Source: Pseudomonadota bacterium (GTDB taxonomy: Bacteria > Pseudomonadota > Gammaproteobacteria > Pseudomonadales > UBA6940). From it: a stretch of DNA of 58,860 nt. A program made the position numbers and the translations under genes. The DNA lies in contig JAZKFP010000050.1 in NCBI GenBank assembly GCA_040386355.1, positions 1 to 58,860 on the forward strand. Direction: 5' to 3'. The notes below the pieces were generated by a model. The model was not told the DNA's origin and searched no databases. It saw only the letters and a list, made by a program, of their open reading frames with translations. This document shows, piece by piece, positions 3,873 through 23,322 of the stretch (the stretch's first letter is position 1; every line of letters begins with the position of its first letter).

Positions 3873-3874
3873 TT

Positions 3875-4015: not shown

Positions 4016-4044
4016 CGTGCCGCTTAATTCAAATGAGCGGCACG
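4016..4044 (+). promoter_or_regulatory. candidate oriT inverted repeat upstream of mobC
   Basis: CGTGCCGCT-N11-AGCGGCACG, a perfect 9-bp inverted repeat, followed by CTTATTTTGTCCCGC. Two CCCGCAT motifs flank it. Its position directly 5' of mobC-relaxase is typical of oriT. Confidence 0.35.
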
Positions 4045-4155
4045 CTTATTTTGTCCCGCATTTATTCGTTTCAATAAATCACAATACATTATGACGATAG
4101 TTTCCCAAAAAACTATTGGGACCAAGCGTATGCTTTTTTAAAAAGGAGTTCGCTC

Positions 4156-4527: not shown

Positions 4528-4531
4528 AAAT

Positions 4532-5815
4532 ATGTTGTTAAAAGCATCTCAACGTGGCGGCGCAGATAAACTGGCTGCGCATTTATTAAATGAAAAAGAT
4601 AATGAGCATATAGAAATTTACGAAATAAATGGATTTATTGCCGAAAATCTGCGCGATGCATTGCAAGAAATTTCGATGATCGCGCAAGGCACACGATGTA
4701 AACAATATTTATTTTCAATAAGCTTAAATCCTCCAGAAAATGAAAACGTGCCGGTGACTACGTTTGAAGATGCAATAGACCGTATAGAAAAAAAGCTTGG
4801 TTTAGAGGGCCAGCCGCGTGCAATTGTTTTTCATGAAAAAAATGCTCGCCGTCATGCGCATTGCGTATGGTCGCGCATTGATGTGGATGAAATGACGGCG
4901 ATTAATCTGCCATTTTATAAAACCAGATTGATGGAAGTTTCAAAAGAATTATATCTGGAACATGGCTGGAATTTACCACCAGGATTTATTAATCGAGAGC
5001 AACGCAACCCACTGAATTTCAGCCGTGAACAATGGCAACAAGCCAAACGGTTGGGTGATAGTCCCGAAACTATCAAAACCATACTTAAAGAATGCTGGGC
5101 GGTTTCGCATGACAAAGCGTGTTTTATGAAAGCTTTAGATGACAAAGGGTATTACCTGGCGCAAGGTGACCGGCGCGGCTATGTCGCTGTCGATTGGCGC
5201 GGTGAATGCTATTCCCTTTCGCGCTGGCTGGGCGTTAAGACTAAAGATTTAAAACATCGCCTGGGTGAACCTGAAAAACTGCCTGCCGTTGCGCAAATCA
5301 AAACACAGATTGATCAAACCATGCGCCAGCGGGTTCAAAATTTCGTGCAAGACATTAAGGCCAAATATGACCGCCGCCGGACCCCATTTGAATCACAAAA
5401 ATCAGGCATGAAAGATCGTCATCGTCATGAACGTAAAGATTTACTCCATAAACAAAAAGAGCGCTGGAATACCGAAGCTATAGAGCGGCAAGCTCGAATA
5501 ACCAAGGGTTTGCGGGGATTTTGGGATCGCATTATCGGCAACCATGCCAAGACTCTAAAAAATAATGAGCGTGAGCGTGAAAATGCCATTTGCCGTGACA
5601 GACAGGAAAAAGAGACGTTGATTTTACGCCAACTTCAAGAACGTCGCGGTTTACAGCAAAGCTTTAAGCATCACAACAACCAATATCATAAAGAATTACA
5701 GACTTTAAAAGAGATGCTTTTTTCAAAAATGCCGGAAGAACATATTCATACATTAACGCAGGAATTTAAAACCCCCTACCCTACGCGCGATCGTAGTTTC
5801 AGTTTTAATAGGTGA
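4532..5815 (+). CDS. relaxase/mobilization nuclease (MobA/VirD2 family)
   Basis: N-terminal MLLKASQRGGADKLAAHLLN, His-triad-like HEKNARRHAHCVWSRID, and a long charged coiled C-terminus. Located directly downstream of mobC. Confidence 0.85.
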   Translation: MLLKASQRGGADKLAAHLLNEKDNEHIEIYEINGFIAENLRDALQEISMIAQGTRCKQYLFSISLNPPENENVPVTTFEDAIDRIEKKLGLEGQPRAIVFHEKNARRHAHCVWSRIDVDEMTAINLPFYKTRLMEVSKELYLEHGWNLPPGFINREQRNPLNFSREQWQQAKRLGDSPETIKTILKECWAVSHDKACFMKALDDKGYYLAQGDRRGYVAVDWRGECYSLSRWLGVKTKDLKHRLGEPEKLPAVAQIKTQIDQTMRQRVQNFVQDIKAKYDRRRTPFESQKSGMKDRHRHERKDLLHKQKERWNTEAIERQARITKGLRGFWDRIIGNHAKTLKNNERERENAICRDRQEKETLILRQLQERRGLQQSFKHHNNQYHKELQTLKEMLFSKMPEEHIHTLTQEFKTPYPTRDRSFSFNR

Positions 5816-5889
5816 TTGTTATGAAAGCATCGATTGACGATGCTTGAAATATAACACATAGTGTGATACATTTAAAAATAGGAGTGCCG

Positions 5890-6297
5890 GTGAAAAACTA
5901 TAAAAACAGGCCAAGAATATTTAAAAACGCTTGGTTTACGCGGTTTGCGGTGAAAGAGAAGATATCCGATGCTCAATTATTAGAGGCCGTTGAGCGTGCT
6001 GAAAAAGGATTAATCGATGCCGATTTAGGCGGACATATTATCAAACAGCGCATTGCCAGGCCGGGGCAAGGAAAATCCGGTGGTTACCGCAGTATTATCA
6101 TTTATAAACAAGGCGACAAAGCTTTTTTTGTATATGGATTTGCAAAGAATGAACGTGACAATCTGGACCGCCAGGAAACAGAAACCTACAAAAAAGCAGC
6201 CAAGGAATTGTTAGCCTTGTCTGACGCACAGATTAAAAAATTGATTGAGAAACACGCATTAATTGAGGTGAAGTATGAGCAACAAGAAGAAATATAA
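5890..6297 (+). CDS. type II toxin, HigB-2/RelE-like (COG4737-type)
   Basis: GQGKSGGYRSIIIYKQGDKAFFVYGFAKNERDNL matches the HigB-2 family core. GTG at 5890 is preceded by GGAG (5881-5884). Overlaps the downstream HTH gene. Confidence 0.75.
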   Translation: MKNYKNRPRIFKNAWFTRFAVKEKISDAQLLEAVERAEKGLIDADLGGHIIKQRIARPGQGKSGGYRSIIIYKQGDKAFFVYGFAKNERDNLDRQETETYKKAAKELLALSDAQIKKLIEKHALIEVKYEQQEEI

Positions 6298-6598
6298 ATC
6301 TGAAGCCTTTGCCGCTATTCATGAAACCATGCAAGCGTTGCATGACACCGGCGCAATGGATAAAAAAACCATGCGCAGCTTTGATGTGGAATGCCTTGAA
6401 ATCAATTCCGATATAAAACCGCAGGACATATTGGCGCTGCGTGAGCGTGAAAATGTGTCACAACCGGTTTTCGCCCGTTATTTAAATGTTTCAAAAAATC
6501 TTGTCTCCGATTGGGAACGCGGCGTTAAAAAACCTGGTGGCCCTGCCCTACGATTATTAGGCCTCATTCAAAAAAAAGGCCTGGATGCGATGCTATAG
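6275..6598 (+). CDS. HTH (XRE-type) antitoxin, HigA-2-like partner
   Basis: LRERENVSQPVFARYLNVSKNLVSDWERGVKKPGGPALRLL is the typical HTH of antitoxins paired with COG4737 toxins. Overlaps the toxin gene by 23 nt. Confidence 0.8.
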   Translation: MSNKKKYKSEAFAAIHETMQALHDTGAMDKKTMRSFDVECLEINSDIKPQDILALRERENVSQPVFARYLNVSKNLVSDWERGVKKPGGPALRLLGLIQKKGLDAML

Positions 6599-6791
6599 AG
6601 CATTATTAAAAATTCGATTGTAAATATACATAACATGAATTAAGTTACTTACCTGTCCAGTCATATTGTGCATCAAATAGCATTTTTAGATGTTTATTTA
6701 GCATTATCTTTGCAAAAAATCTGTTTAAGAGCTTGTTTTTGACTTTTACAAAAAACTTTTGACGCTCCTTTCACAAAAACGGTATGCACTT

Positions 6792-9383
6792 ATGATAAGG
6801 ATTATTATATTTTGCGGAAGTTTGCTTTTATCCGGTTTTATCTACGCAAAATCTTTCAACCTCTACCTTTATATCCCCTCAGGAAGTACCGCCTCTACCA
6901 GTTTCTTCGAACGTAATATTTTTTATACACGCTGCGATGTACAAATTGGTGAGGATGAGGAAACAAGATTTCCGGCGAATAGCTTTATTAACGTCACTTC
7001 CTCTGAATTTAAAAAAATTTATTGTGAATTTCCTGGGCGTGATACCACTTATGAATTTAAATATGGTCGTGATGTTATTAATCCAGATTTTTGGGCAGGA
7101 ACAAATATTAAAAATAGTGAATTTGGGCTTCTTTTTGATGGAACAGGAAATCCATTTAGATTTGATTCACCGCACGTTTATAGTGAATCTAGCCCTTATT
7201 ACGGATGGTGGGATACTCCTGTTTCAGGAAGTTTTGGTTTCAGCACTCATTCTTATTGGGGGCCTTACATTAATGATGCTTGGCAAATTCCCGCTGCAAT
7301 TTTACTAAAACCGGCAAAAATCCGCGGCACAGAAAGATCGCGTGGATATATTACCAGTGCATCTTATATCCCAGAAGGAGCAGAAGCAGCATTATTAAAT
7401 GGTAGATTTTATTTTTACGAACAAAATTATCGTGATGATAACTCTAAAATTATTAAACCCTTACGATTGTCTGGTTATTACAGTTTTGACGAAAAATTAT
7501 CTCCAGTAAAAGTTCGAGTTACACAAGCGGTATTCCAGGAAGGCGATGACCCGATACGTCTGGTTCATATGAGAACTACTGCGGTTATAGTGGATAAAAC
7601 GGAAAACTTAAGCAATAAGCAAGCTACCGTGAAAATTCTTGATATTACTACCGGTACAGAAAACCCGCCGATTATATTTCAAACAACTGAAGTGAATGCA
7701 AAACCTGGTGAAAATCCTTTGCAGAAGATTTTTTACTGTAATGAAAGCAATAAATTCTGTAATTTAAATAAAGATAAGAAGTATGAAATTTTAATTGGTT
7801 TTGGCGATGGTTTTTCTGAAATCTCTAAAACCGTGACGGTGAAAGAAACAAACATGCTGGAATTATTTTTTGTTCCAATAATTACTCCTGATAGAATTCA
7901 AGAATCAATTTTAAGGGATAAACCATTCATTGAATTATATGTTGCAAATGCTAATCGTTTTATACAACAAGTTTATCCTTTATCTGATAAAGGTTTAACT
8001 CTTGTATCAAAATATTCTGACGTTAGACATCCTGAATCAGTCAAAGACCCAATTAAGGGATCTGAAACATATTGTGATTATAAATCTTGGTTTTTTGATC
8101 GTTCTGCTGATGTTTTCATTTGTGACATCTCTAAAGTTGATAGATTAAAAAATAAAACAAAATCTGTGTTTCAAAGAGGTATTGGTTTGGTTAACCCTTT
8201 CTATTTCGAAAATTTGGGATTAGGGAATGTTACTGGAATAAGAAACAAAAATTATAAATCTGCTTTAGTTGAGTTCATACCATCTGAAACAACTGGAACA
8301 GCCGGATTAACGGTAGTGACAGCTCATGAACTTGGACATACCTTCGGTCTTCCTGGCGTAAAAAACAATATCAATTTCAATGAAGAATATAATCAAGACC
8401 CTGATACAAAAGAAGTTATTTCTAGCCGAGCAGATTTAGTTAAAGCTAATGGTTTTAATGTTTACAGCGGAGCATTTAAGACTGATAAAATAAATTTTAT
8501 GAGTGATGCCAGCTATCCTAGCAGTAGCTATTGGGTAAGTAATACTACTTGGGTAAAATTACAAGAAAATCTATCTCTTGAAAAAGATGACCCAAAGCTT
8601 ATTTATGTTACATTCATGCTCACTAAAACTGACAAAGTTTATCCAATGCACTGGCATACGATGGATGGGTTTGATTCAGAACATGATAAAGGCGTATATG
8701 AAATTGTTACTATCGATGCAGGAGGTAATGACATTGAAAGTTACAAATTCGATCCTGAATTTGTTTGGGAAGTAGAGGGCGCAGACAATATTATTACTGA
8801 TAAAACTGTGATTTCAAAAAATATTTTATTAAGTGATGATGTTAGATTGATCGAAATTAGAAAGAAAAATGTTGGTTCAATTTTTTCAGTTAATCCTGAA
8901 GTTAAAATATTGGAAGATTATTCAGTCGAAATTATTGAGCAGTGCAACATTAACACTTATCAAAAATCAATTATAGAATCAGGAATTCATTCTATAGTCG
9001 CCAATATTATAAATAAGAGTTTTAATAAAAAAGATTTAATTAAGCTTAGGGAAATTGGTACTATTTATGCCAGCTTGAATAGTAAAGATTGTGATTTATC
9101 ATCCAGTTATTTTCGCACTCCACAAGAGATATCACTATCGGTTTTTGAACAATTAGATCGTTTAAATAAAATATTTGAAGCTGATTACTCAGCGCATGTC
9201 GGTGATTTTGATAAGGACGGAGATGTAGATCAAAACGATTTAAATATACTTATGACCTCACGTAACAAACCGGTAAATGAAGAAAATAATTCAATGGATT
9301 TGGATGGAGACGGCATGATAACTGGACTTGATGCTAGAAAACTAACTCAAATCTGCACCCGTGCTAGATGCGCTTTCAATTGA
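6792..9383 (+). CDS. secreted zinc metalloprotease with C-terminal dockerin-like double Ca-binding repeat
   Basis: Signal-peptide-like MIRIIIFCGSLLLSGFIYA. HELGH zincin motif at 8325-8339. The C-terminus (9195-9380) reads GDFDKDGDVDQNDLNILM...DLDGDGMITGLDARKL, a dockerin type I pattern. Confidence 0.7.
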   Translation: MIRIIIFCGSLLLSGFIYAKSFNLYLYIPSGSTASTSFFERNIFYTRCDVQIGEDEETRFPANSFINVTSSEFKKIYCEFPGRDTTYEFKYGRDVINPDFWAGTNIKNSEFGLLFDGTGNPFRFDSPHVYSESSPYYGWWDTPVSGSFGFSTHSYWGPYINDAWQIPAAILLKPAKIRGTERSRGYITSASYIPEGAEAALLNGRFYFYEQNYRDDNSKIIKPLRLSGYYSFDEKLSPVKVRVTQAVFQEGDDPIRLVHMRTTAVIVDKTENLSNKQATVKILDITTGTENPPIIFQTTEVNAKPGENPLQKIFYCNESNKFCNLNKDKKYEILIGFGDGFSEISKTVTVKETNMLELFFVPIITPDRIQESILRDKPFIELYVANANRFIQQVYPLSDKGLTLVSKYSDVRHPESVKDPIKGSETYCDYKSWFFDRSADVFICDISKVDRLKNKTKSVFQRGIGLVNPFYFENLGLGNVTGIRNKNYKSALVEFIPSETTGTAGLTVVTAHELGHTFGLPGVKNNINFNEEYNQDPDTKEVISSRADLVKANGFNVYSGAFKTDKINFMSDASYPSSSYWVSNTTWVKLQENLSLEKDDPKLIYVTFMLTKTDKVYPMHWHTMDGFDSEHDKGVYEIVTIDAGGNDIESYKFDPEFVWEVEGADNIITDKTVISKNILLSDDVRLIEIRKKNVGSIFSVNPEVKILEDYSVEIIEQCNINTYQKSIIESGIHSIVANIINKSFNKKDLIKLREIGTIYASLNSKDCDLSSSYFRTPQEISLSVFEQLDRLNKIFEADYSAHVGDFDKDGDVDQNDLNILMTSRNKPVNEENNSMDLDGDGMITGLDARKLTQICTRARCAFN

Positions 9384-12419: not shown

Positions 12420-13304
12420 TTATGTATGGTGTGTTTTGTTTAGAAAATCATTCGCTTTTTGCGCTTGCGCCGCTGCCTGAAAAATATATTTTTTATCACT
12501 TTTTAAGGCTTGCAACCATGTTTTGATATATTGTGCATGATCCTCGCGGCCTTCTTGTTTAATTTTGAATTGCGCGCATAAAAAAGCACTGCCAAGCTCG
12601 GCGATAAGCTCCTCAAAAGCGTATGCCTTAAAATCATTGTGTAAAGCTGATTGTTTACGATTAAGGCGTGTTTTACCGCCGCTCCAATGTGTTAATTCAT
12701 GAAATAGAATCGCATAATAATTATCTGTCGCGCTGTGCTTTTCGTCTTCAAAAAATATTTCTTTGCTGACCATATGAATTTGATCGAGTGAAGGAATAAA
12801 ACAGGGGGTGGATTGATTTTCGATAATAACGGCTTTTGTTTTTTCAACAAAAGTGTCAATTTCTTTTATCGTTTCTACATTCCCTAAAATACGTGTTTCT
12901 TCCTTGATTTCCGGTTGATAATTTTCGACTTGATCGGCGTTGAAAACAGAATAATATTTAAGCATATTGTAAAAATCCTGTTCTTTCTCTTTTTTATTTA
13001 CGTCTTTTTTTTCTACAAGTTGGTAATAAATTATTGTCGTCGATTTTTCATTTTTTTTCACTTGCGCGCCTTTTTCTTGCCATTGTTTGTAGGTTCCCCA
13101 TTCGCCAGAGCTATATCCGGCTTTAAATTGTGCGAACCATAAAACAACGGTATTAATCCCGCGATAGGCGTTGCCTGTCATGGGATTGAGCGGCAAAGCC
13201 TGCCCGGCAAGTTGCGCAAACGGTGCCTTAAAATCATCGGAATTGACACGCTCCAGTGCCTCAATAATGCTGTTGGTGATGTCCTGATAAATGTCTTTTT
13301 TCAT
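12420..13304 (-). CDS. ardC: ArdC-like antirestriction protein (ssDNA-binding N-domain plus zincin metalloprotease domain)
   Basis: ITNSIIEALE...NAYRGINTVVLW...GEWGTYKQWQEKGAQVKK is the DUF1738/ArdC N-domain pattern, with an HELTHW metallopeptidase motif. ATG at 13304 has AGGAGAA upstream. The ORF-track start at 13415 is unlikely. Confidence 0.85.
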   Translation of the reverse strand: MKKDIYQDITNSIIEALERVNSDDFKAPFAQLAGQALPLNPMTGNAYRGINTVVLWFAQFKAGYSSGEWGTYKQWQEKGAQVKKNEKSTTIIYYQLVEKKDVNKKEKEQDFYNMLKYYSVFNADQVENYQPEIKEETRILGNVETIKEIDTFVEKTKAVIIENQSTPCFIPSLDQIHMVSKEIFFEDEKHSATDNYYAILFHELTHWSGGKTRLNRKQSALHNDFKAYAFEELIAELGSAFLCAQFKIKQEGREDHAQYIKTWLQALKSDKKYIFQAAAQAQKANDFLNKTHHT

Positions 13305-13744
13305 CGCTTTTCTCCTGTCATTTCGGGTTAATGCATCGCGCATTAACCCCTGACCCGCTGGCGAAGCGGTGGGGGTGCAAATGGAAAGAAAAATCGACGG
13401 CGGGCGCACAAGCAAAGCGCGGAGCCTCGGGAGACCGTCTATTTTTCTTGAAATGCGCTGGGGGCGAAGCCCTAAGTTTTTTTGATAGAAAGGCGAAATT
13501 TATTTTACATGAGGCTGTTCAATAATCCGGGAGATTTGAGGTTAATCAATTTTCTGGAGTTTGATTAATGATCAAAAATGGGCACGTTTTTAAGCGCACA
13601 GGGGGGAATTATTTTGACAGCGGGCAACGCGTTGAACCTTGCAGACGTGAGGAAGCAAGGGCTTGTTAGGGGATTTGGTTTTTAATGGCGCATTTAATGC
13701 GCGGCAATAATATTAGAATTTATATATTTGAACACCAAAAAATA

Positions 13745-14340
13745 TTATTCACTGAAATAGCTCGGCAGTTTTGATAAAACAGTAATTATCAATTCAGAAT
13801 ACTGATCTAAAATATTATAACTAAATCCTTCCGCAGGAACTCCTTCAAGCTGCAACGACTTCGCTAATATTTTACAAACTTCACGATCTACATAACCTTT
13901 TTTATACAGCCAAACTTCTAAGCTACTTGATAATCCTATTTTCAATTTAGTTTGAAGCATCCTGATTGATTCTAACAATTCTTTGTTTAAACCTTTTCCC
14001 TCTGCAATATCAGCTATCGTACCCAAAATAAGCATTGAATCAAAAGAAAGCGCCTCATCGGCAAGATCAAAAACATGATCCATTTTAAGCTCTCTTTTTT
14101 GTGATCCCGCCTGATAAAAGCTTGAGATTGTTTAAGAAATATCAAAAGATTTTTATAGCTATTACCCGCAAGCCATTTCATTGCGAACTCAAATAGCATA
14201 TTTGCAGGTTTAATTTTTGATAAGCTTTTATTTTTATTCAATTGAACTATCAAAGGCCAGAAAAGCACCAACATTTCTTCTTTGCTTGGTGCAATGTGAA
14301 TATCAAACCAATTTTCTTCTAACCAAGCTTCAATTAGCAA
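13745..14340 (-). pseudogene. frameshifted AT-rich gene fragment (possible C-terminal piece of a larger, perhaps helicase-like, protein)
   Basis: Two overlapping same-strand ORFs (14014..14340 and 13745..14083) read as one protein after a frameshift. The fragment starts abruptly at the compositional boundary at about 14340. Confidence 0.4.
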
Positions 14341-14387
14341 ACCTCCTTCCGGGATTGATCTTGCGGGCCTCCAAAAAGGAGGTTTGC

Positions 14388-14560
14388 ATGAGACTGATGA
14401 CGAGATTTGAGCTGGCCGCGAAAACTGAAAGCTAGCTGTATGCCCTGCTCAGAGAGGCGTTCAACGAGCTTGCGAAAAGCAATACCCGACACCCACCAAC
14501 GCCGCAACGCGCTGGCTTCCATCGAGAATATTCAGGGAGAATTAAAACGCCGCCAAAAAC
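14388..14560 (+). pseudogene. degraded small conserved plasmid/ICE-type ORF (..RRNALASIENI.. family)
   Basis: MRLMTRFELAAKTES, then TAG (14433-14435), then LYALLREAFNELAKS. The text continues in the +1 frame as IPDTHQRRNALASIENIQGELKRRQKL. That makes one amber codon plus one frameshift. The 3' boundary is approximate. Confidence 0.3.
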
Positions 14561-16815
14561 TTTCCTTGGTCATGAAGATGAAATCCGACCGAAGAATCAG
14601 CAACAATCAGCATCAAGGCTGGCAATCCCTCTACCTGCAAGGATTTTGTTAAAAAGCAAAGCTGCCCGACATCGGCCTGACTTGGTAAAGCAGAGCAGCC
14701 GCGAGGGTGAGAGTGCCATTCGCCAACATATGTTACAATCCCTGCTGTTTTGTCTCGGCAGTCGTCAAGTATATCTGTTGACTCGTAAGCTGCCCGACCG
14801 AAACTCGAAGGGGTTGCTTCACTGTTTTCAGGGGCTGAGCAGGCTTTGACCAGAAAAATAGTCTTATCTTTTTGATCGATTATTCCAAACAATATTCCAC
14901 CAGTTTCATTTGGAAGCGCTGTTAGACGCATGGCATTTACATCACTTAAAAATCCATCATCCCAATAAACTTCCCATTCTCCAATTTTGATCGAATGGCT
15001 AGGATTCACCGGAATATTTCTTGGAACAACTGCCCCGCTCTCGTCCAGATAGTCCCAGATGCAAATTCTGGCATTCGCTGATCCCGTGCTTTTCCTGATT
15101 TGCCGGGCAAGCATTGCGGCATGTAAATGAATCAATTCGTCCGAAATGGTTAGCGTAATTGCCCTGCAACCCGCTCCGACCCATTGGCGACCGATGTGGC
15201 CGGTCAGGTGATGCGCGCCCCAAGCAGAATTCAAAATTGATCTGTAATATTGTGCTTCCAGGCTGTTGCAACGTATTTTTCGGTCGCTATCTTCTAGGAG
15301 CATAACGCAAGAGATTCCCGAAGGCGTTATAAAGACACTGGCGGTTCGAGGTGCGTCGTCTCTTTGAGAAATTTCTCTAGGGACATGCAAGGTTGTAGTA
15401 GCGTCAATTAGGAGTTCTGAGTTTTCTATTGCACACAGCGCATCGGGATTATCCGAAAGTATGCTGGACACAAAAAAATTCGCCTTTCTTTCTGATGGAT
15501 GAATGTCGCCTACGAGGGTGTCAACCACAAATGCTTTTGGGTGCCCTATGCAGCTATGGTTTGCAATATGCCGAACTGTGTTGTGTGCCTTTATTATGTC
15601 TTCGTCAAAATACGACCACTCCCCCCAACATTCCCGGCTCCATATTTTGGCCAGCAACCCGCCAAGCGCACCAACACCAGCGATGATGCCTTTAGGCCCT
15701 GCGTCTTTTGAGTCCAAGCCTGAATATCGTCGTATCTCTTCCGGACTGGGGTAACACCGTACATTTACCGGAGTTAAGGGCATGACCTTCCAGCTATCAG
15801 ACTGGGAACGTAACATGACATCTTTGAACCATTTTTTTGTTTCTGGGTCTTGAAACAATACAGAAAGGCTTTCGCCCAGCTCCCCCATATTGGAATCGAC
15901 AATAAACCCTCGTGTTTCTATCCTTTCCACCACACCACTTCGCAATCTCGGAATGCCAAGAAGCAAGAGGACAAATTCTTTTCGATTTTTCTGAAATTCA
16001 ACTCCATTCTCACTGACAACATCTAAAATCGATTTTTTCAGAAGTTCAACAATACCTTTCCCTCTACGTTCCAGAAGGAGTTCCAATTGTCCTAGGGTAT
16101 GCGGATATTCTTCAACAGGGCCGTTTTCAATAGGGTCAAGAGCAAGAGTGACAGGCAGGCACAATGGGGTATTGGCAGATACTTTGTTTTCATAAACGCC
16201 TATAAGCGTTACGGTTTTTACACCTTCTGGCTCGACAGGGACGAAATAAATTTTTCTATTCCGAAATTCTTCATTAAAGAAATTTTGAGGCAATATAATG
16301 TCGTAACAGCTAGAAAAAAACAGATGCTCTAACGGCTGGTCATCGCCATGGATGGTGCCTTCTGCGGTTTCCCTGAGCCACCAAAATATGCGCTTTATAA
16401 AAAGCTCAGGAGTCCAAGAGCGCTCAACTGTGTGCCACGGCTCAATGTATAGGCATAACGAGCGGGGTTCGCCTGGCAGTATATGATTTTGATGTATCGT
16501 TATTGGAAATCCGTGCCTTAACGCCCTCACTTCCCAAGGAAACGCATTAGCCGGGCAATATGTGAGGGAGAGCCTCTCGACCCTGCGTATGTCTGCCGGA
16601 TTGTTTGCATCAAACGAACCATCTGCAAAGTCTACAATAACGGACTGACGTTGATGCTCCGGATCAGACCTTAATTCGAGCACTTCGCATGAAGAGTTAT
16701 TTAGGCATGCCTTATAAATCTTTTGAACAGCCGGATCAAGTTGCTCAAGGGCGGTTTGCGCGCCACTCCAATTATAAAAATCTGCTTCCATCAGCCTGCT
16801 CGTGGCGGTGTGCAT
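14542..16815 (-). CDS. E2-like / E1-like (ThiF) / JAB-MPN deubiquitinase-like triple-fusion protein
   Basis: The E2 hallmark HQNHILPGEPRSLCL has HxN followed by Cys121 (codon 16453-16455). The E1 Rossmann motif is GIIAGVGALGG...YFDEDIIKAHNTVRH. The JAMM motif is E..GG.. EWHSHPRGCSALPSQAD. An alternative start, Met9 at 16791, overlaps the upstream stop as TGATG. Confidence 0.85.
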   Translation of the reverse strand: MHTATSRLMEADFYNWSGAQTALEQLDPAVQKIYKACLNNSSCEVLELRSDPEHQRQSVIVDFADGSFDANNPADIRRVERLSLTYCPANAFPWEVRALRHGFPITIHQNHILPGEPRSLCLYIEPWHTVERSWTPELFIKRIFWWLRETAEGTIHGDDQPLEHLFFSSCYDIILPQNFFNEEFRNRKIYFVPVEPEGVKTVTLIGVYENKVSANTPLCLPVTLALDPIENGPVEEYPHTLGQLELLLERRGKGIVELLKKSILDVVSENGVEFQKNRKEFVLLLLGIPRLRSGVVERIETRGFIVDSNMGELGESLSVLFQDPETKKWFKDVMLRSQSDSWKVMPLTPVNVRCYPSPEEIRRYSGLDSKDAGPKGIIAGVGALGGLLAKIWSRECWGEWSYFDEDIIKAHNTVRHIANHSCIGHPKAFVVDTLVGDIHPSERKANFFVSSILSDNPDALCAIENSELLIDATTTLHVPREISQRDDAPRTASVFITPSGISCVMLLEDSDRKIRCNSLEAQYYRSILNSAWGAHHLTGHIGRQWVGAGCRAITLTISDELIHLHAAMLARQIRKSTGSANARICIWDYLDESGAVVPRNIPVNPSHSIKIGEWEVYWDDGFLSDVNAMRLTALPNETGGILFGIIDQKDKTIFLVKACSAPENSEATPSSFGRAAYESTDILDDCRDKTAGIVTYVGEWHSHPRGCSALPSQADVGQLCFLTKSLQVEGLPALMLIVADSSVGFHLHDQGKFLAAF

Positions 16816-17951
16816 GATGTAACAGAAACGGCAGCAGATGCCGCAACGGCCAGCTTAAAGCTTCCATTTGCTGCTTCAAATTCCAGCGGGGCTGGCTTCC
16901 ACTTGTTTGGCTCTTCACCGGTACATTTAAACACCCCGGATGTGCCAAGTATTTCGCGATATTCTCGCTTTGCCCGGATGCATGGAGGGTCGATGTCATC
17001 ATCCATTACAGGTTTGCTGCTCGAAACAATAAATGCTCCATATCTAGCCTGGGCGAGTGCTTGCCTGGCTTTTTGCGACACTCTTGCATTTTCGCCTTTT
17101 TCAGACCAACTGTCATAAGACAACGACCTCCAAGAGCAGTGATGGGGCGCGAGCAGCAAATCGTACTGTAAATCCACAGCGTTGAATTCGTCGGCGATCC
17201 TCTCCCATATGGCCACACCCGCGTCGCCGCCAGCCAGAAATTTGCTGACACTTGTTCCGTAGGATGAATTTTTGATCCCAAAATTGATAATTACGCTCGA
17301 ATCGTTCTTTGATAGCCTTTCTTCGGTTTCATCATTCTGCTTGCCAATAGGGGCGATCAGAAGTGATGTGAGAAACTCGGAAGACGACTGATTTATCCCC
17401 GAAAATTCGTTGCCAGCCTTCACAAGAATTGGAGACAAATCGTCAGTTTTGCCGTTTTCATCTTCGCCCAGTACCAAAATCTTATCGCCATCATTTACTG
17501 CAAGCCGTTTTTTTCTGTATTCCGTAACCCGGCGTCTGGCCTCAGCATTGAACGCTTTTGCATCATCGCATAGCACATGGTTCTTTGATGCCCTGCGAAA
17601 TACCATAGGGGATGACCACATTTGACGAATTACAATTCGTTTTTCGTTCTGCGGCTTCCTATCGTCCGGATAATCCGCAATCGGGCCAAGCCAAAAATGT
17701 TTTCTCAGGCCCAGACAATGATCTTCGTCCGGGTGGGTTAACAGCATTGCATCAACATAAGGACGATTACTGCTGTCCGCTTTCAGCCTGCTTCTAAGCA
17801 TTTTTGCAACATCAGGGGTCGTTTCATCCGGATCATCCGCAGACGACCCGATCTTGCAGTCAATCAAGAGGCAGGTCGCATTTTGATCTGCAAGCCTAAC
17901 CAGAACCATATCGCCATTATCGACAGGGAAAAATGTAACCTTTGCGGCCAT
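16791..17951 (-). CDS. metallo-beta-lactamase-fold protein (ComEC/Rec2-like HxDxDH variant), predicted hydrolase/nuclease
   Basis: KVTFFPVDNGDMVLV...CLLIDC, LLTHPDEDHCLG, later LLAPHHCS. ATG at 17951 is preceded by GGAG. The C-terminal tail ...AVAASAAVSVTSCTPPRAG ends in Gly. Confidence 0.8.
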   Translation of the reverse strand: MAAKVTFFPVDNGDMVLVRLADQNATCLLIDCKIGSSADDPDETTPDVAKMLRSRLKADSSNRPYVDAMLLTHPDEDHCLGLRKHFWLGPIADYPDDRKPQNEKRIVIRQMWSSPMVFRRASKNHVLCDDAKAFNAEARRRVTEYRKKRLAVNDGDKILVLGEDENGKTDDLSPILVKAGNEFSGINQSSSEFLTSLLIAPIGKQNDETEERLSKNDSSVIINFGIKNSSYGTSVSKFLAGGDAGVAIWERIADEFNAVDLQYDLLLAPHHCSWRSLSYDSWSEKGENARVSQKARQALAQARYGAFIVSSSKPVMDDDIDPPCIRAKREYREILGTSGVFKCTGEEPNKWKPAPLEFEAANGSFKLAVAASAAVSVTSCTPPRAG

Positions 17952-17973
17952 GATATTTAACTCCAATTCTAGT

Positions 17974-18600
17974 TTATAAAGCCGCAACTACGGCATTCAC
18001 GACAAACCGATTCCCAAACACCCGCGCAGTGATTAGTGATATTGTCAGAAATGCTCCCTGCACCAGATAAACCATGTTGTTGATTTTTCCCGTCAACTCT
18101 GCGTTCCCAAAAGCTGACCAAGCCAGCGTTGCAATAAAGATTATCAACAACCCTGAAAAAGCGTCCCTGTATAACAAAAAGCTGCGGTGAGCCTGCAACA
18201 CTTCCGGCGTGTCTTTCACAGACTTGTAAATTTGCTGGTACCAACGGCTGTTCCGAATGGAGCCATCGATTTTATCTTCTGAAAACACTTCGGGCCACCT
18301 GCTTTTAAGGGTCTCGAATTCAACTCTTGGTTCACTTTTGCAAAGCTTGTCGATTCGGCAAGCCGGCAATTCGTTTTTCACTCTGGTAAACACTATCTTG
18401 TGCTTTATTCCATGGGGAATAATATTTGCCAGCATCACCAAAACTGCCGAGAGCATGAGACTCATGCCTCCTGCCATGGCGGCATCTGCGATATTCGATA
18501 CAGCCTTGTATCCGAATTGCAGGAAGACAGAAGCGGTCAAAGATGCAGCCATGATGAAGAAAATGTTTTTGCTATTTTCTTTTTTTAAATCGACTTCCAT
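17974..18600 (-). CDS. membrane protein, about 4 TM helices with a central soluble loop
   Basis: Hydrophobic segments are IFFIMAASLTASVFLQFGY, GMSLMLSAVLVMLANII, FSGLLIIFIATLAWSAF and VYLVQGAFLTISLITARVF. Same strand as the MBL gene, 22 nt upstream of it. Confidence 0.6.
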   Translation of the reverse strand: MEVDLKKENSKNIFFIMAASLTASVFLQFGYKAVSNIADAAMAGGMSLMLSAVLVMLANIIPHGIKHKIVFTRVKNELPACRIDKLCKSEPRVEFETLKSRWPEVFSEDKIDGSIRNSRWYQQIYKSVKDTPEVLQAHRSFLLYRDAFSGLLIIFIATLAWSAFGNAELTGKINNMVYLVQGAFLTISLITARVFGNRFVVNAVVAAL

Positions 18601-18620
18601 TTTTCAGTTTCCACTCTCAA

Positions 18621-18992
18621 TTAAATTTTTCCGCAAAACGGAAGCGAACGTGATGACGTTGCATCCAAAAGCAAATGGCTCAAATATCCGGCACCTGCAC
18701 AAAGCGTCAACCCTCTTGCGAACGCCTCCACGCGATCTTGCGGTCGCCATTCATAAGCCTTCTTAAGCCCATACCCAATCAGTCCCAGGACGATCACGCT
18801 GTGACAAAACTGGCGGTGATGGGGATTGTTCAAGGAAGGTTCGAGAACGTCTGGCAACTTACTGAATGCTGTCCCTACTCCCATAGCCAGCAAGAAATCG
18901 TGTTGAAGATTGCCACTTTGATCCGAGTCGCCAATCGCGACCACTAAGCCAGCGAATCCCCCGACGATTGAGTACGTTGAGCAATTTGCCAT
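18621..18992 (-). CDS. small membrane-bound metal-dependent hydrolase-like protein (DUF457/YdjM-like)
   Basis: HHRQFCHSV and GYLSHLLLDATS motifs in a hydrophobic protein. ATG at 18992 has GGAG upstream. The ORF-track start at 19073 overlaps the upstream small gene. Confidence 0.55.
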   Translation of the reverse strand: MANCSTYSIVGGFAGLVVAIGDSDQSGNLQHDFLLAMGVGTAFSKLPDVLEPSLNNPHHRQFCHSVIVLGLIGYGLKKAYEWRPQDRVEAFARGLTLCAGAGYLSHLLLDATSSRSLPFCGKI

Positions 18993-18993
18993 G

Positions 18994-19167
18994 TTATTTC
19001 TCCTTTCTGACCCCTTTGAACGGGGATTTGTCGGTGGTTTTAACGTCCATGAAGCGTCCAGTATCAGTATCACGCTTCACGTAATGCCCTGAAGGGGTTT
19101 GGGTCTGCGAGCGATCTTTGACTGCGCCTTTGCGATGTCCGTCACCAGTTGGAGGATTTTTAGCCAT
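18994..19167 (-). CDS. 57-aa basic hydrophilic protein, first gene of the operon
   Basis: GAAGGAG-N7-ATG. Product is MAKNPPTGDGHRKGAVKDRSQTQTPSGHYVKRDTDTGRFMDVKTTDKSPFKGVRKEK. Its stop lies 1 nt before the next ATG. Below the ORF-track cutoff. Confidence 0.5.
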   Translation of the reverse strand: MAKNPPTGDGHRKGAVKDRSQTQTPSGHYVKRDTDTGRFMDVKTTDKSPFKGVRKEK

Positions 19168-19173
19168 ATAGAA

Positions 19174-19262
19174 CTCCTTCTGTCAACAATGGTTAATATT
19201 GATATTAACAGTCGTTAATAGTATCTTTGGAGTGGAGCTCCTTGTCAACAGGTGTTAATATT
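19174..19262. promoter_or_regulatory. divergent promoter/operator region with two ~25-bp direct repeats and a palindrome
   Basis: CTCCTTCTGTCAACAATGGTTAATATT (19174-19200) and CTCCTTGTCAACAGGTGTTAATATT (19238-19262). GTTAATAT-TG-ATATTAAC palindrome at 19192-19209. Confidence 0.45.
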
Positions 19263-19284
19263 AAAATCAACAGGAGTTAATGCC

Positions 19285-19647
19285 ATGTCAGACAAAATTG
19301 CTCAAGCCCAAACAATTAGTAAAAATATCAAGGAGATGCGTGAAAGTCGGGGCTGGAATCAAGCTCGGCTTGCTCAGGAGGCTGGTATAACCGCTGCCGC
19401 GCTAAGCATGATAGAGAAGGGTGATGGCCGGATGCCCACGATAGTGCTTTTGCGGAAAATCGCATCAGCGCTTAAGGTTCAGCTCAATGAGATTACAGGT
19501 GAAGAGCCCGCAATGGTTTCCGAGACTGAGGAGCGCAGCCGCGAGTTTTACCGCAAATGGGGGGATGTCATTGATGGCTTGCCGCCGGATGATCAGGCGA
19601 GATTGAAAGACATGGCTGAAAGACTGAAAGAGATCACGAAAAAATGA
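19285..19647 (+). CDS. XRE-family HTH transcriptional regulator
   Basis: IKEMRESRGWNQARLAQEAGITAAALSMIEKG is a classic Cro/C1 HTH. AGGAG upstream of the ATG at 19285. ATGA overlap with the next gene. Confidence 0.85.
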   Translation: MSDKIAQAQTISKNIKEMRESRGWNQARLAQEAGITAAALSMIEKGDGRMPTIVLLRKIASALKVQLNEITGEEPAMVSETEERSREFYRKWGDVIDGLPPDDQARLKDMAERLKEITKK

Positions 19648-20459
19648 TAGAAGAACAAAAAGGAGTCGTGGAGGCTGAAACGCTGCTGGAGTCTCTCGGT
19701 TTTGACGTGCTTCCAATCGCTCCCATTGATGTTGCCAATTCTATTAACTGCGATGATTTTCGGCTGGTAATGGAGTACCAGGATTTTCAGTCGGACAAAA
19801 TTCTTGGTAAAGCGGAAGGCAATAGCAAAGGTGCTCTCATTTACGTCAATAAAAACATTCCTGACGTGGGGCGACTCAATTTTACTGCCGCCCATGAAGT
19901 CGGGCACGTCTGCATGCACGTCATACCCCAGCAGAAACTTTCTTTTGAGTGCGGAAAACAAGAGTTGAGCAGCTCCTTCGATGATCCCATAGAAAAGCAG
20001 GCGAATGGATTTGCGTCAGGATTATTGATTCCCAAAAGGCTTATCAAACAGCACTCCGATTGCGATATTAACTGGAAAAATATTCATGTAATTTCCCAGT
20101 TGTGCGGAGCCTCTTTGGAGGCGACCTACAGGCGCCTCAGCTTTTTGGAAAAAACGCCGAGCATGCTTGTCATTCACAAAGACGGCAACTTCAAGCGGTT
20201 TGTCCCTTCACAGAATTTCGGTTTTTATGTGGCTCGAACCCCTCTTTCCATTGAGCAAAAATCATTGGTGGTGGACGTTAGCCAGAACCAATTCCCTGCT
20301 GATTTTGACACCACCGATGCCTCCGACTGGGTCAACACTTATTCTAAAAGCGGAAGCCTCAATACAATTTACACAAGCACGATATTGCTGAAAGACGGCT
20401 TTACCTACACAATTTTATCTTATGACGATAATTGCCTTGCTGAAGATGATGATTACTAG
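19644..20459 (+). CDS. ImmA/IrrE-family metalloendopeptidase
   Basis: FTAAHEVGHVCMH HExxH motif in the typical ImmA context; translationally coupled to the XRE gene. Confidence 0.8.
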   Translation: MIEEQKGVVEAETLLESLGFDVLPIAPIDVANSINCDDFRLVMEYQDFQSDKILGKAEGNSKGALIYVNKNIPDVGRLNFTAAHEVGHVCMHVIPQQKLSFECGKQELSSSFDDPIEKQANGFASGLLIPKRLIKQHSDCDINWKNIHVISQLCGASLEATYRRLSFLEKTPSMLVIHKDGNFKRFVPSQNFGFYVARTPLSIEQKSLVVDVSQNQFPADFDTTDASDWVNTYSKSGSLNTIYTSTILLKDGFTYTILSYDDNCLAEDDDY

Positions 20460-21654: not shown

Positions 21655-23322
21655 TTAAAGACGCAGTTTTGTTTTTCCCTTATAAGCTTTGCCATAGAGT
21701 GGGTTCACTTCAAGCTGCTTTTTCCATGGTGAAATTTCGTGATAACTGATTTTATCCAGCAAGACAGGTCGTAAGCCACCGGAAAATAGAATGATTTTAT
21801 CTGTCCGGCGCACTTCATCCGGTGTCATCAGTTTTCGTGGAGTTTCATGCACTGAAGTTGAGACCGGATTAAAAAAATATTCGCCTATATTATAGTTTTT
21901 TGATTTGATGGATTGGTCACCCAACATATTTGAAATTAATTGGCAGGTTTTAAACGATCTTATATTCATGATGATTTTTACTTCTGTTTGAGAAAGCAAT
22001 GTTTCTAAACTTTCTCTTCCGTAAACATAAGCCCATTGCTCAAGCTCCTGAATTATGAGCCACATAGTAATCTGGTATTCTCTTGCCAAAGTTAACATCG
22101 ATGGCAAATTATCAACTTTAAAATTGGTAATTTCATCGCATAAAAAACATACGCGATTGGGGCCGGTAGTACGCATTAATTCTCTCAATGCACACCAGGA
22201 TAAAACCGCTAGCCATGGCGCATAGACGCTCATGCGAGTTGGATCAGCAATAAGATAAATAGTGATTTTTTTGTGTTTCATATCCGAAAAACGAAAATCA
22301 CATACGGACGTACATTCTGCAAGAACACCGCTTGCAGAAAACACTTCTACGGATTGCACCGCGCCCTCTCGAAAACTCTCAACTTGTTTAGGATCGCCAT
22401 TTTCGATTTTGCCGATCATATCGCGGGCCAGCCTGGCAAGATCACCATGTAAATGGGTGGATTGCACAGCCTCACGCAAGGCGGCATGTAATCTTTCGCT
22501 ATCACTTAGCAGTGATAAGGCGTTCGATAAGGTAGCGTTGCCTTCCATCGTCATCAAATATACAAATGCAAAAATCAAGAATTTTCGCGCACCATTTCGC
22601 CAATATTGGTTTTCACCTTGTGTTTTTGGGTCCTGACAAAACTGCTTTGCCAAACCTTCGGCCTCAGATAAAACTTGATTATGTAATTTTGGATCAACCC
22701 AAGTATCAATTAGAATTTGCAGCGGGTTGTATCGTGCGCCAACACCTAAAATATGCGCATTAATACCTGCTGGATTAACGAAAAGCGTTTCATGCTGAAA
22801 TTTTTTGCGGCGATATTTACCGGTCATGACAGCTAAAGTACCTTTTAAATCCGGCACCAACATACTTGTGGAGTTATGACATAAGGTTGGAATAACAAAA
22901 CCAGTGGTTTTTCCTCCACCAGCCGGACTAAGCACTAATCCAGAGGATTCAATATCTACAAAGACGGGTTTGTTGTTATGTAACCCCGCTAAAAATCCGC
23001 GTGGTTTTTTTCGAGCTCCAGAGAGCAATCCAAAAGTTTTAAATAATCCTGCTTGCTGTATTTCTTTAGGTGAAGCCCAACCGGCAGTTCCGGCTTTGCC
23101 GGTGGTTTTCATAGCTTTAATATAAAAAAATATTCGGGGAATGGATCTTAAAATTAAAGCGCCGAGATGGGCAAATAATAATCCGGCAGAAAACATGAAC
23201 ATCAGCGGCATTAATGCCCATTCGGTTTCGAGTAAATCAAATGTTTTCCATGCAAACCAGGAAAATAATACACCTAAAATCAACATGCCGGTGGGATGTT
23301 CACCTTGTCGATGATATCGCAT
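21655..23322 (-). CDS. type IV secretion coupling protein (VirD4/TraG/TraD family)
   Basis: Two N-terminal TM helices, Walker A SPAGGGKTTGFVIPT, and overall T4CP length and pattern. Confidence 0.85.
   Translation of the reverse strand: MRYHRQGEHPTGMLILGVLFSWFAWKTFDLLETEWALMPLMFMFSAGLLFAHLGALILRSIPRIFFYIKAMKTTGKAGTAGWASPKEIQQAGLFKTFGLLSGARKKPRGFLAGLHNNKPVFVDIESSGLVLSPAGGGKTTGFVIPTLCHNSTSMLVPDLKGTLAVMTGKYRRKKFQHETLFVNPAGINAHILGVGARYNPLQILIDTWVDPKLHNQVLSEAEGLAKQFCQDPKTQGENQYWRNGARKFLIFAFVYLMTMEGNATLSNALSLLSDSERLHAALREAVQSTHLHGDLARLARDMIGKIENGDPKQVESFREGAVQSVEVFSASGVLAECTSVCDFRFSDMKHKKITIYLIADPTRMSVYAPWLAVLSWCALRELMRTTGPNRVCFLCDEITNFKVDNLPSMLTLAREYQITMWLIIQELEQWAYVYGRESLETLLSQTEVKIIMNIRSFKTCQLISNMLGDQSIKSKNYNIGEYFFNPVSTSVHETPRKLMTPDEVRRTDKIILFSGGLRPVLLDKISYHEISPWKKQLEVNPLYGKAYKGKTKLRL

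What the first reader, a model, noticed from the sequence alone, without database searches (positions are those of the whole stretch)
16791..16860. The MBL protein ends in a flexible Ala/Ser/Val tail terminating ...PPRAG, with its stop fused (TGATG) to a start codon of the E2-E1-JAB gene
No Ubl ORF is visible anywhere in 13.4-21 kb. The MBL protein ends with about 20 low-complexity residues (AVAASAAVSVTSCTPPRAG) whose last residue is Gly. Its TGA shares a base with an ATG (Met9) of the conjugation enzyme. In CBASS, Cap2 adenylates and conjugates the C-terminus of the cyclase itself, and Cap3 reverses this. By analogy, the MBL enzyme may be the conjugated moiety: its C-terminus would be activated by the E1 domain, passed to Cys121 and trimmed by the JAB domain. 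This is hypothesis only.
Basis: inference. Interest (0 to 1): 0.62.

Follow-up and report, generated by a model that had tools for sequence, protein, structure and literature searches.

The report
Defence enzyme with ubiquitin-like tail
This is a new copy of a known anti-phage operon (6A-MBL) whose hydrolase carries a floppy tail ending in a strictly conserved glycine, most likely so that the neighbouring ubiquitin-type enzyme can attach the hydrolase to other molecules, as happens in the related CBASS system.

Summary
On the minus strand, a 386-aa MBL-fold protein (16791-17951) ends ...AVAASAAVSVTSCTPPRAG. Its TGA shares one base with the ATG of an E2-E1-JAB gene (14542-16791).

The pair is already catalogued. 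Both proteins pass NCBI's curated models for the anti-phage "6A-MBL" system, which is operon type 6a of Iyer et al. 2006.

- The tail is predicted to be disordered (pLDDT below 50 for residues 371-386).
- Its end is conserved across the family as ...RAG, ...xHG, ...xYG or ...RYA.
- In 42 non-redundant loci the terminal Gly never changes, although all four Gly codons are used.
- All 114 non-redundant loci with an E1-like gene downstream have the Gly/Ala end. Neither of the two loci without one has it.
- No Ubl gene is conserved nearby.
- About 40% of relatives carry 1-8 residues after the Gly. These codons overlap the next gene's start and would need JAB trimming. The window's protein needs none.

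The idea is not new. A 2024 preprint already groups "MBL pathways" with type II CBASS as conjugating their own enzyme, so this is a new member of a known kind. The chemistry remains untested.

Side finding: 40 of 46 locus groups also encode an uncharacterised four-helix membrane protein.

The parts
16791..17951 (-). MBL-fold enzyme of the 6A-MBL system (386 aa plus stop). Metal-site residues H73, D75, D77, H78, D243, H270 and H271 are invariant.
   Evidence: NCBIfam NF058524 '6A-MBL_enzyme' scores 413 bits against a cut-off of 220. Pfam Lactamase_B gives a weak hit. The AlphaFold2 model has pLDDT 85. Its best fold match is the ComEC beta-lactamase-like domain 9IC4 (E 2e-12). Invariant residues come and coordinates.
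16794..16850 (-). Disordered Ala/Ser/Val-rich C-terminal tail, residues A368-G386 (AVAASAAVSVTSCTPPRAG).
   Evidence: pLDDT is below 50 for residues 371-386. The tail lies outside the NCBIfam model, which ends at about residue 361 of the 386-aa protein. A tail is present in all full-length homologues.
16794..16808 (-). Terminal motif P-P-R-A-G. Gly386 is the proposed site of adenylation and conjugation.
   Evidence: Ala and Gly are invariant and Arg is present in 19 of 20 non-redundant clade-A loci, with 4, 4 and 5 different codons used. The sister clade has an invariant H-G in 22 of 22 loci. A third clade ends ...RYA in 16 of 16 loci.
16789..16793 (-). TGATG stop/start overlap. The MBL stop and the E2-E1-JAB start share base 16791, which implies translational coupling.
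   Evidence: In 40 of 40 non-redundant groups the next gene starts between -11 and +19 nt of the MBL stop, and the two genes overlap in 26 of 40.
14542..16791 (-). cap2_3 gene: E2-E1-JAB triple-module protein (749 aa plus stop).
   Evidence: NCBIfam NF058523 '6A-MBL_cap2_3' scores 625 bits against a cut-off of 320. Pfam finds Prok-E2_A, ThiF and Prok-JAB. A family profile matches the Cap2 structures 7TO3, 7TSQ and 7TSX at about E 1e-8 and a JAB peptidase, 9ILD, at 8e-10.
16276..16605 (-). E2-like domain.
   Evidence: Pfam Prok-E2_A, E 6e-24. C113 is invariant in 40 sequences. Coordinates.
15166..15687 (-). E1 adenylation domain. It has G372/G374/G377, D396, D398, R407, K419 and D463, plus an invariant Cys542 (codon 15166-15168) that is the candidate E1 catalytic cysteine.
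   Evidence: ThiF hit. Homology to the Cap2 E1 domain. Invariant columns. The Cys assignment is inferred only from spacing: it lies about 170 residues after the GxGxxG motif, as C548 does in E. cloacae Cap2.
14653..14928 (-). JAB/JAMM peptidase domain. It has E629 and H693-x-H695-x8-S704-x2-D707 (EWHSHPRGCSALPSQAD).
   Evidence: Pfam Prok-JAB, E 1e-10. PADLOC JAB, E 2e-20. Invariant residues.
17974..18600 (-). Four-helix membrane protein of 208 aa, 22 nt upstream of the MBL gene. It is probably a third component of the system.
   Evidence: The same family is adjacent in 19 non-redundant locus groups. A second family with the same membrane topology is adjacent in 22 groups. Together they cover 40 of 46 groups. 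The AlphaFold2 model has pLDDT 89.6 and is all-helical. It has no Pfam, NCBIfam, PADLOC or PDB match.
18621..19167 (-). Two further upstream genes in the same tightly packed operon: a 57-aa basic protein (18994-19167) and a YdjM-like membrane protein (18621-19073, probably starting at 18992).
   Evidence: Pfam YdjM, E 4e-7. Both genes are conserved only in the 7-8 closest locus groups.
19252..20459 (+). Divergently transcribed regulator pair: CapH (helix-turn-helix, 19252-19647) and CapP (IrrE/M78 metallopeptidase, 19644-20459).
   Evidence: PADLOC capH at 7e-18 and capP at 4e-41. Pfam HTH_3 and Peptidase_M78. A promoter-like site on the minus strand at 19248-19220 matches 10 of 12 positions, but the number of such sites is not above chance.

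Best explanation
The window carries a complete 6A-MBL anti-phage cassette on a conjugative element. The conjugated moiety is the MBL enzyme itself, not a ubiquitin-like protein.

The MBL protein has a ComEC-like hydrolase core and therefore probably acts on nucleic acid or nucleotides. The core is followed by a linker of about 19 disordered residues ending in Pro-Pro-Arg-Ala-Gly-COOH.

The translationally coupled next gene encodes a Cap2-Cap3 fusion (E2-E1-JAB). The proposed sequence of events is:
1. The E1 domain binds the tail and adenylates Gly386.
2. The MBL protein passes as a thioester to an E1 cysteine (candidate Cys542).
3. It then passes to the E2 cysteine (Cys113).
4. It is finally transferred to an amine on an unknown target.
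5. The JAB domain removes the conjugates. In the roughly 40% of relatives that are made with 1-8 extra residues after the Gly, JAB would first expose the Gly.

By analogy with CBASS, conjugation would prime or relocate the enzyme, and CapH/CapP would control expression.

Shown here: family membership, the disordered tail, family-wide conservation of the terminal Gly/Ala at the amino-acid level, co-occurrence of that end with an E1-like neighbour, conserved catalytic residues, and the absence of a Ubl gene.

Inferred: every chemical step, the target, and the effect of conjugation on MBL activity.
For: - Curated family models are passed for both proteins. The operon type was described in 2006 (PMC1779556). 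The system is cited as a validated anti-phage system.
- The tail is disordered.
- The terminal motif is present in 117 of 120 close homologues and in 77 of 82 distant cluster representatives at 29-56% identity.
- The Gly is invariant although all four codons are used, in 20 plus 22 non-redundant loci.
- The Ala-ending (...RYA) clade pairs with a split Cap2 plus a separate Cap3 in 16 loci.
- 114 of 114 loci with an E1-like gene downstream have the motif. The 2 loci without one lack it.
- The E2 Cys, the E1 motifs, a candidate E1 Cys and the JAMM residues are invariant.
- The E1 domain is homologous to solved Cap2 structures.
- CBASS precedent: a disordered tail, a terminal Gly or Ala that is conserved only when Cap2 and Cap3 are present, and loss of conjugation when the Gly is mutated.
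- The literature already states that 'MBL pathways' conjugate their own enzyme.
Against: - There is no biochemical evidence for adenylation or conjugation of any MBL protein in the sources I could read. The key paper (van den Berg 2024) is not held.
- The negative control rests on only two loci, and one of them is a truncated gene.
- The assignment of Cys542 as the E1 cysteine rests on spacing alone.
- I could not model the E1-tail complex.
- The curated NCBIfam model leaves out the tail, so database annotation gives no independent support for it.
Confidence: 0.75

Rival explanations
1. The tail is only a peptidase substrate or a docking peptide. The MBL would be a latent enzyme that the JAB domain switches on by clipping, as in protease-activated MBL nucleases, and nothing would be transferred to a target.
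For: - Related MBL effectors paired with trypsin-like or caspase-like proteases are zymogens that become dsDNA nucleases after cleavage (10.1101/2025.11.14.688446).
- The window MBL has weak PADLOC and NCBIfam hits to such MBLs (RTasMBL, Avs1a).
- About 40% of family members carry residues after the Gly that a peptidase could remove.
Against: - The window's protein, and more than half of the family, end exactly at Gly or Ala, so there is nothing to clip.
- The extra residues are simply the codons that overlap the start of the next gene.
- In the trypsin-MBL zymogens the cuts fall in internal linkers, not at the C-terminus.
- Invariant E2 and E1 cysteines and adenylation residues would have no role.
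Confidence: 0.12
2. The conserved end is a by-product of nucleotide-level constraint. The last MBL codons would serve as the ribosome-binding site or coupling signal for the overlapping cap2_3 start and would have no function in the protein.
For: - The two genes are always tightly coupled, with starts between -11 and +19 nt of the stop in 40 of 40 groups.
- The RAG and HG codons are purine-rich and lie 5-12 nt upstream of the start in many loci.
Against: - The amino acids are fixed while the codons vary: four Ala codons, four Gly codons and five Arg codons in clade A.
- The motif persists where the start lies 9-19 nt beyond the stop and has its own AGGAG, for example in L056, L041 and L062.
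- The motif sits at a fixed position in the protein but at a variable distance from the start codon.
- The same Gly-or-Ala rule is known for CBASS substrates.
Confidence: 0.04
3. A conventional small modifier encoded elsewhere, or the 57-aa protein in this operon, is the real substrate of the E1 domain. The MBL would be only an effector or a target.
For: - Bil and Bub systems use dedicated Ubl proteins.
- This operon has a conserved 57-aa ORF at 18994-19167.
Against: - The 57-aa protein ends ...GVRKEK, with no terminal Gly. It has no family hit and occurs in only 8 of 46 locus groups.
- No other small ORF is conserved. Those detected are antisense shadows of the WYL regulator gene.
- The classic 6a operon has only two genes.
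Confidence: 0.04

Closest known systems
6A-MBL anti-phage system (operon type 6a of Iyer, Burroughs and Aravind 2006; named and validated in Pseudomonas aeruginosa by van den Berg et al. 2024)
   Same: - It is a two-gene core: an MBL-fold protein followed by an E2-E1-JAB triple-module protein.
- Both window proteins pass NCBI's equivalog models.
- It lies on a mobile element, as originally noted for related operons.
   Different: - This copy is embedded in a five-gene operon, with a four-helix membrane protein, a YdjM-like protein and a 57-aa protein.
- It is regulated by CapH/CapP rather than by the WYL regulator seen in at least 23 of 46 related groups.
- Its MBL ends exactly at Gly and carries no extension.
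Type II CBASS: Cap2 (E2-E1) conjugates the C-terminus of the CD-NTase/cGAS and Cap3 (JAB) reverses it
   Same: - The E1 and JAB domains are homologous.
- The substrate is an enzyme, not a beta-grasp protein.
- The substrate has a disordered C-terminal tail of about 19 residues.
- The terminal residue is Gly or Ala, and it is conserved only when the E1/E2/JAB partner is present (versus 30, 50, 93).
- The same CapH/CapP and WYL-type regulators are used.
   Different: - The substrate is an MBL hydrolase, not a nucleotide cyclase.
- Cap2 and Cap3 are fused in most members.
- Many members are made with 1-8 residues after the Gly.
- No cyclic-nucleotide-sensing effector is recognisable.
Ubiquitin-like systems with precursor processing (bacterial Bil and Bub; eukaryotic ubiquitin and Atg8)
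   Same: - The C-terminal Gly is the reactive end.
- A short variable extension follows the Gly in many members, which implies exposure by a peptidase. JAB does this in Bil and Bub.
   Different: - There is no beta-grasp fold.
- There is a single Gly preceded by Ala, His or Tyr rather than Gly-Gly.
- The E1 and E2 belong to the non-canonical Cap2/Atg7-like branch.
Protease-activated MBL nuclease modules (trypsin-MBL and caspase-MBL in Avs, Hachiman and others)
   Same: - It is a defence-associated MBL enzyme with a ComEC/RNase J-like fold, paired with a peptidase-containing partner.
   Different: - Those enzymes are activated by two internal cuts.
- They have no E1 or E2 partner and no conserved terminal Gly.

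Membership tests
6A-MBL anti-phage system | An MBL-fold protein that matches the curated equivalog model NF058524 above its cut-off | tested here: met
   413.3 bits against a cut-off of 220, over residues 19-373 of the 398-aa ORF
6A-MBL anti-phage system | A single protein with E2, E1 and JAB domains in that order, matching NF058523 | tested here: met
   625.1 bits against a cut-off of 320. Pfam finds Prok-E2_A, ThiF and Prok-JAB in that order.
6A-MBL anti-phage system | The two genes are adjacent and co-oriented in one operon | tested here: met
   TGATG overlap. The same arrangement is seen in 40 of 40 related groups.
6A-MBL anti-phage system | Protects against phage infection | not testable with these tools
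   Known only from citations of van den Berg 2024. That paper is not held.
Type II CBASS | A CD-NTase (cGAS/DncV-like cyclase) gene in the operon | tested here: not met
   No CD-NTase hit for any ORF between 12 and 21 kb in Pfam, PADLOC or NCBIfam. The MBL occupies that position.
Type II CBASS | A Cap2-type E2-E1 protein and a Cap3-type JAB peptidase | tested here: met
   PADLOC E1-E2 and JAB models hit. A family profile hits the Cap2 structures 7TO3 and 7TSQ at about 1e-8. In the window the two are fused. In the ...RYA clade they are split, and the Cap2 there matches a PADLOC CBASS E1-E2 model over its full length at 627 bits.
Type II CBASS | The substrate enzyme has a disordered C-terminal tail ending in a conserved Gly or Ala | tested here: met
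.
Type II CBASS | An effector activated by a cyclic oligonucleotide | tested here: not met
   No SAVED, STING, patatin, Cap4 or similar hit. The adjacent membrane protein has no recognisable sensor domain.
Ubl conjugation systems (Bil/Bub/ubiquitin) | A beta-grasp ubiquitin-like protein encoded in the operon | tested here: not met
   No such ORF is found in the window or conserved in 46 related groups.
Protease-activated MBL zymogens | Paired with a trypsin-, caspase- or subtilisin-like protease that cuts internal linkers | tested here: not met
   The partner is E2-E1-JAB and no serine or cysteine protease domain is present.

The most novel reading that the evidence does not exclude
The system may really have three components. 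The ComEC-like MBL hydrolase would be conjugated through Gly386 to the conserved four-helix membrane protein, or to a membrane lipid as in Atg8 lipidation by the related Atg7/Atg3 enzymes. This would tether a nuclease at the membrane where phage DNA enters or where phage vesicles form. The JAB domain would both mature precursor forms and release the enzyme.
Probability: 0.12. Interest if true: 0.75.

Novelty: new member of a known kind. Interest (0 to 1): 0.4.

Why it matters
Enzyme-as-modifier conjugation has been shown biochemically only for CBASS cyclases. If it also holds for 6A-MBL, the Cap2/Cap3 machinery would be a general device for attaching different defence enzymes to targets.

The comparative rule found here gives precise mutations to test:
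- Gly with the fused cap2_3 and Ala with the split Cap2 plus Cap3.
- Short extensions after the Gly in about 40% of members.
- The Gly/Ala end co-occurs with an E1-like neighbour in every locus examined.

It also gives a mass-spectrometry handle. Trypsin should leave an Ala-Gly remnant on target lysines, because the motif is Arg-Ala-Gly.

The family is on 264 sequenced plasmids, including E. coli IncF and Klebsiella plasmids, so a tractable model is available.

Tried and rejected
- **Plasmid DNA search.** Megablast of the cassette against the plasmid collection gave no match.
- **Single-sequence PDB search.** Searching cap2_3 alone against PDB sequences found nothing. A family profile was needed.
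- **van den Berg 2024 and Chambers 2024.** Neither paper is held. I therefore could not check whether the terminal Gly has already been reported or mutated.
- **A natural MBL-cap2_3 fusion to model the tail in the E1 site.** P0130 (1166 aa) turned out to be a frameshift artefact with an out-of-frame, Arg-rich middle.
- **Small conserved ORFs upstream of the MBL as possible Ubls.** Clusters 24, 78, 14 and 11 are antisense shadows of the WYL regulator gene.
- **Homology between the two membrane-protein families.** hhalign gave a probability of 0.3%, so homology is not shown.
- **The 'SLATT effector' label.** One UniRef entry (P0486) gives this name to a homologue of the membrane protein. No Pfam or NCBIfam model supports it for any of 40 members. 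Foldseek found no solved relative.
- **A negative control with MBL variants carrying an extra C-terminal domain (P0125, P0162).** No such loci exist in the genome collection. The control therefore rests on two loci only.
- **Pairwise BLASTP of the fused cap2_3 against the split Cap2.** The alignment was too weak to place the E1 cysteine.


Full report
**Observation.** The genes of interest lie on the minus strand.
- The MBL ORF ends ...SFKLAVAASAAVSVTSCTPPRAG, followed by TGA.
- The DNA reads CCG CCA CGA GCA GGC TGA TGG. The A of the stop codon (16791) is also the first base of an ATG in the frame of the next gene.
- The MBL protein begins at the ATG at 17951 and is 386 aa long. The N-terminus MAAKVTFFPVDN is shared by 120 homologues of 384-397 aa.
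- The downstream gene begins at the TGATG methionine and encodes 749 aa. Homologues start MEVDYFDWGG at the equivalent position, and the upstream ATG at 16815 is not conserved.

**Identity.**
- Pfam finds Lactamase_B (weak) in the first protein and Prok-E2_A, ThiF and Prok-JAB in the second.
- NCBIfam places both proteins in curated equivalog families: '6A-MBL_enzyme' (413 bits, cut-off 220) and '6A-MBL_cap2_3' (625 bits, cut-off 320).
- '6A' refers to row 6a of Table 1 in Iyer, Burroughs and Aravind 2006. That row describes a two-gene operon of a triple-module E2-E1-JAB protein next to a specialised metallo-beta-lactamase (PMC1779556).
- The system is cited as an experimentally validated defence of Pseudomonas aeruginosa (PMC13276650) and is listed among jumbo-phage defences (10.1101/2025.09.30.679545).
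I could not read the primary 6A-MBL paper.

**Test of the hypothesis: conservation of the tail.**
- Among the 120 closest homologues (58-100% identity), 117 keep ...[S/A]xxPPRAG or a close variant. The three exceptions are truncated, frameshifted or over-extended.
- In 80 genomic loci from many phyla, three forms of the C-terminus appear:
  - ...PPRAG, the window's clade;
  - ...PMPHG or ...QPLxHG, a large clade borne on integrative conjugative elements;
  - ...(R/K)YA, found in Acidobacteria.
- Among 82 full-length representatives of 50%-identity clusters (29-56% identical to the query), 44 end in Gly and 12 end in Tyr-Ala. A further 21 have [H/Y/A]-Gly followed by 1-8 residues, and 5 do not fit.
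- Ending in Gly or Ala in 56 of 82 cases, against about 13.5% expected from composition, gives a binomial probability of 8e-30.

**Selection acts on the protein, not the DNA.**
- In 20 non-redundant clade-A loci, Ala and Gly are invariant and each uses four codons. Arg is kept in 19 of 20 and uses five codons.
- In 22 clade-B loci, His-Gly is invariant, with both His codons and all four Gly codons in use.
- The motif keeps its position in the protein while its distance from the next start codon varies. It persists in loci where that start lies 9-19 nt past the stop and has its own Shine-Dalgarno sequence.

**Link to the E1-like partner.**
- In 117 non-redundant loci with enough downstream sequence, 114 have a cap2_3 or Cap2 homologue directly downstream, and all 114 have the Gly/Ala end.
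- The two loci with a different C-terminus have no such neighbour. One locus ends in Gly with no E1-like gene detected.
- The ...RYA clade is followed by a split E2-E1 protein of about 625 aa and a separate JAB protein of about 190 aa. These match CBASS-type PADLOC models over their full length.
- This is the same pattern reported for CBASS. There the cGAS terminal residue is Gly or Ala only in operons with Cap2 and Cap3, and mutating it abolishes thioester formation, conjugation and defence (PMC10097602). The tail there is also disordered, with a conserved end (10.1101/2022.03.31.486616).

**Structure.**
- AlphaFold2 with a 54-sequence alignment gives a confident MBL core (pLDDT 85, pTM 0.88). 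Residues 371-386 fall below pLDDT 50.
- The best solved match is the beta-lactamase-like domain of ComEC (9IC4, E 2e-12, target TM-score 0.73), followed by RNase Z and beta-CASP enzymes. A nucleic-acid or nucleotide substrate is therefore likely.
- The metal-site residues are invariant.

**The conjugating enzyme.**
- A 40-sequence alignment shows these invariant residues (coordinates):
  - Cys113 in PRSLCLY (E2 domain);
  - the GxGxxG motif, D396, D398, R407, K419 and D463 (E1 domain);
  - Cys542 in GAGCR;
  - E629 and H693/H695/S704/D707 (JAMM motif).
- The family profile matches Cap2 structures at about 1e-8 and a JAB peptidase at 8e-10.
- Cys542 lies about 170 residues after the GxGxxG motif, as C548 does in E. 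cloacae Cap2. This equivalence is an inference.

**Extensions after the Gly.**
- Many relatives end ...RAG-AWK, ...HG-AS and so on.
- The DNA shows that these codons are the ones overlapped by the next gene's start. For example, GGC GCA TGG AAG TAG reads G-A-W-K-stop in one frame and ATG GAA G.. (M-E) in the other.
- The start lies between -11 and +19 nt of the stop in 40 of 40 groups, and the genes overlap in 26 of 40.
- Such proteins would need trimming to expose the Gly. JAB peptidases perform this task in Bil and Bub systems.
- The window's protein ends at Gly and needs no trimming.

**No Ubl gene.**
- I clustered all ORFs of 50 aa or more from the 80 loci plus the window.
- The only conserved small proteins were antisense shadows of a regulator gene and a 57-aa basic protein. 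The 57-aa protein ends ...GVRKEK and is confined to 8 groups.

**Context.**
- The cassette is divergent from a capH-capP regulator pair. At least 23 of 46 related groups have a WYL regulator instead.
- A 208-aa four-helix membrane protein sits 22 nt upstream of the MBL gene. This family, or a second family with the same topology, is adjacent in 40 of 46 groups. Four of the six groups lacking one have short flanks.
- The two membrane-protein families are not demonstrably homologous.
- The window's membrane protein folds confidently but matches no family model and no solved structure.
- The cassette has 45-47% G+C, against 31-40% in its surroundings. It lies between a relaxase gene, ardC and a type IV coupling protein gene.

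**Verdict.** The system and the idea are already known, so this is a new member of a known kind. The Gly/Ala rule, the precursor forms and the near-universal membrane partner may be useful additions.

Noticed in passing
window 17974-18600 (-); also L001 9453-10187, L026 4206-4997, L038 4316-4990, L081 2981-3499: A four-helix membrane protein accompanies the MBL/cap2_3 pair in 40 of 46 non-redundant locus groups. It has two membrane helices, a helical loop of about 90 residues, then two more membrane helices. It sits upstream, downstream or beside the regulator. Two sequence-unrelated families share this topology. Neither matches any Pfam, NCBIfam, PADLOC or PDB entry. It is probably a third component of the system, either an effector or a target.
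   Followed up: partly
window 13745-14340 (-): Two overlapping ORFs match positions 837-921 and 922-1031 of the 1037-position Hachiman HamB helicase model. This is a frameshifted fragment of only the C-terminus of HamB, lying directly downstream of cap2_3. The cassette may have displaced an older Hachiman system.
   Followed up: no
window 19252-20459 (+): A CapH (helix-turn-helix) and CapP (M78 peptidase) regulator pair lies divergent from the operon. This clade uses it in place of the WYL regulator found in most relatives.
   Followed up: partly
window 18621-19167 (-): A 57-aa highly basic protein (ending ...FKGVRKEK) and a YdjM-like membrane protein are packed at the head of the same operon. 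They are conserved only in the 7-8 closest locus groups. Their function is unknown.
   Followed up: partly
window 14000-20000 versus the flanks: The cassette has 45-47% G+C, against 31-40% in the rest of the window. It lies within a conjugative or mobilisable element: relaxase 4532-5815, ArdC 12420-13415, type IV coupling protein 21655-23322. Chromosomal alaS is at 42148-44787.
   Followed up: partly
window 16828-16844 (-): A G+C-rich hairpin (GCGGCA-TCTGC-TGCCGT) followed by a T-rich run lies inside the tail-coding region, about 35 nt before the cap2_3 start. It may only reflect the Ala codons. The number of such sites in the region is not above chance.
   Followed up: no
P0137 (631 aa), P0125 (504 aa), P0162 (532 aa): Some family members carry extra C-terminal domains. 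P0137 continues for about 230 residues after an ...IRPHG motif, and the added part contains an E2-like HLYKDGSFCL segment. This may be a natural MBL-E2 pre-protein. P0125 and P0162 have a different added domain and no terminal Gly.
   Followed up: no
L081 (E. coli plasmid pN17EC0320-1, CP043740) 2981-7907: The family is on 264 sequenced plasmids: Klebsiella 126, Clostridium 31, Escherichia 25, Acinetobacter 18. The E. coli IncF copy has a WYL regulator and a 172-aa membrane protein on one side. On the other side is an MBL ending ...AAAPRAGVSNQ with a 4-nt overlap to cap2_3. The genes are annotated only as 'metallohydrolase' and 'hypothetical protein'.
   Followed up: partly
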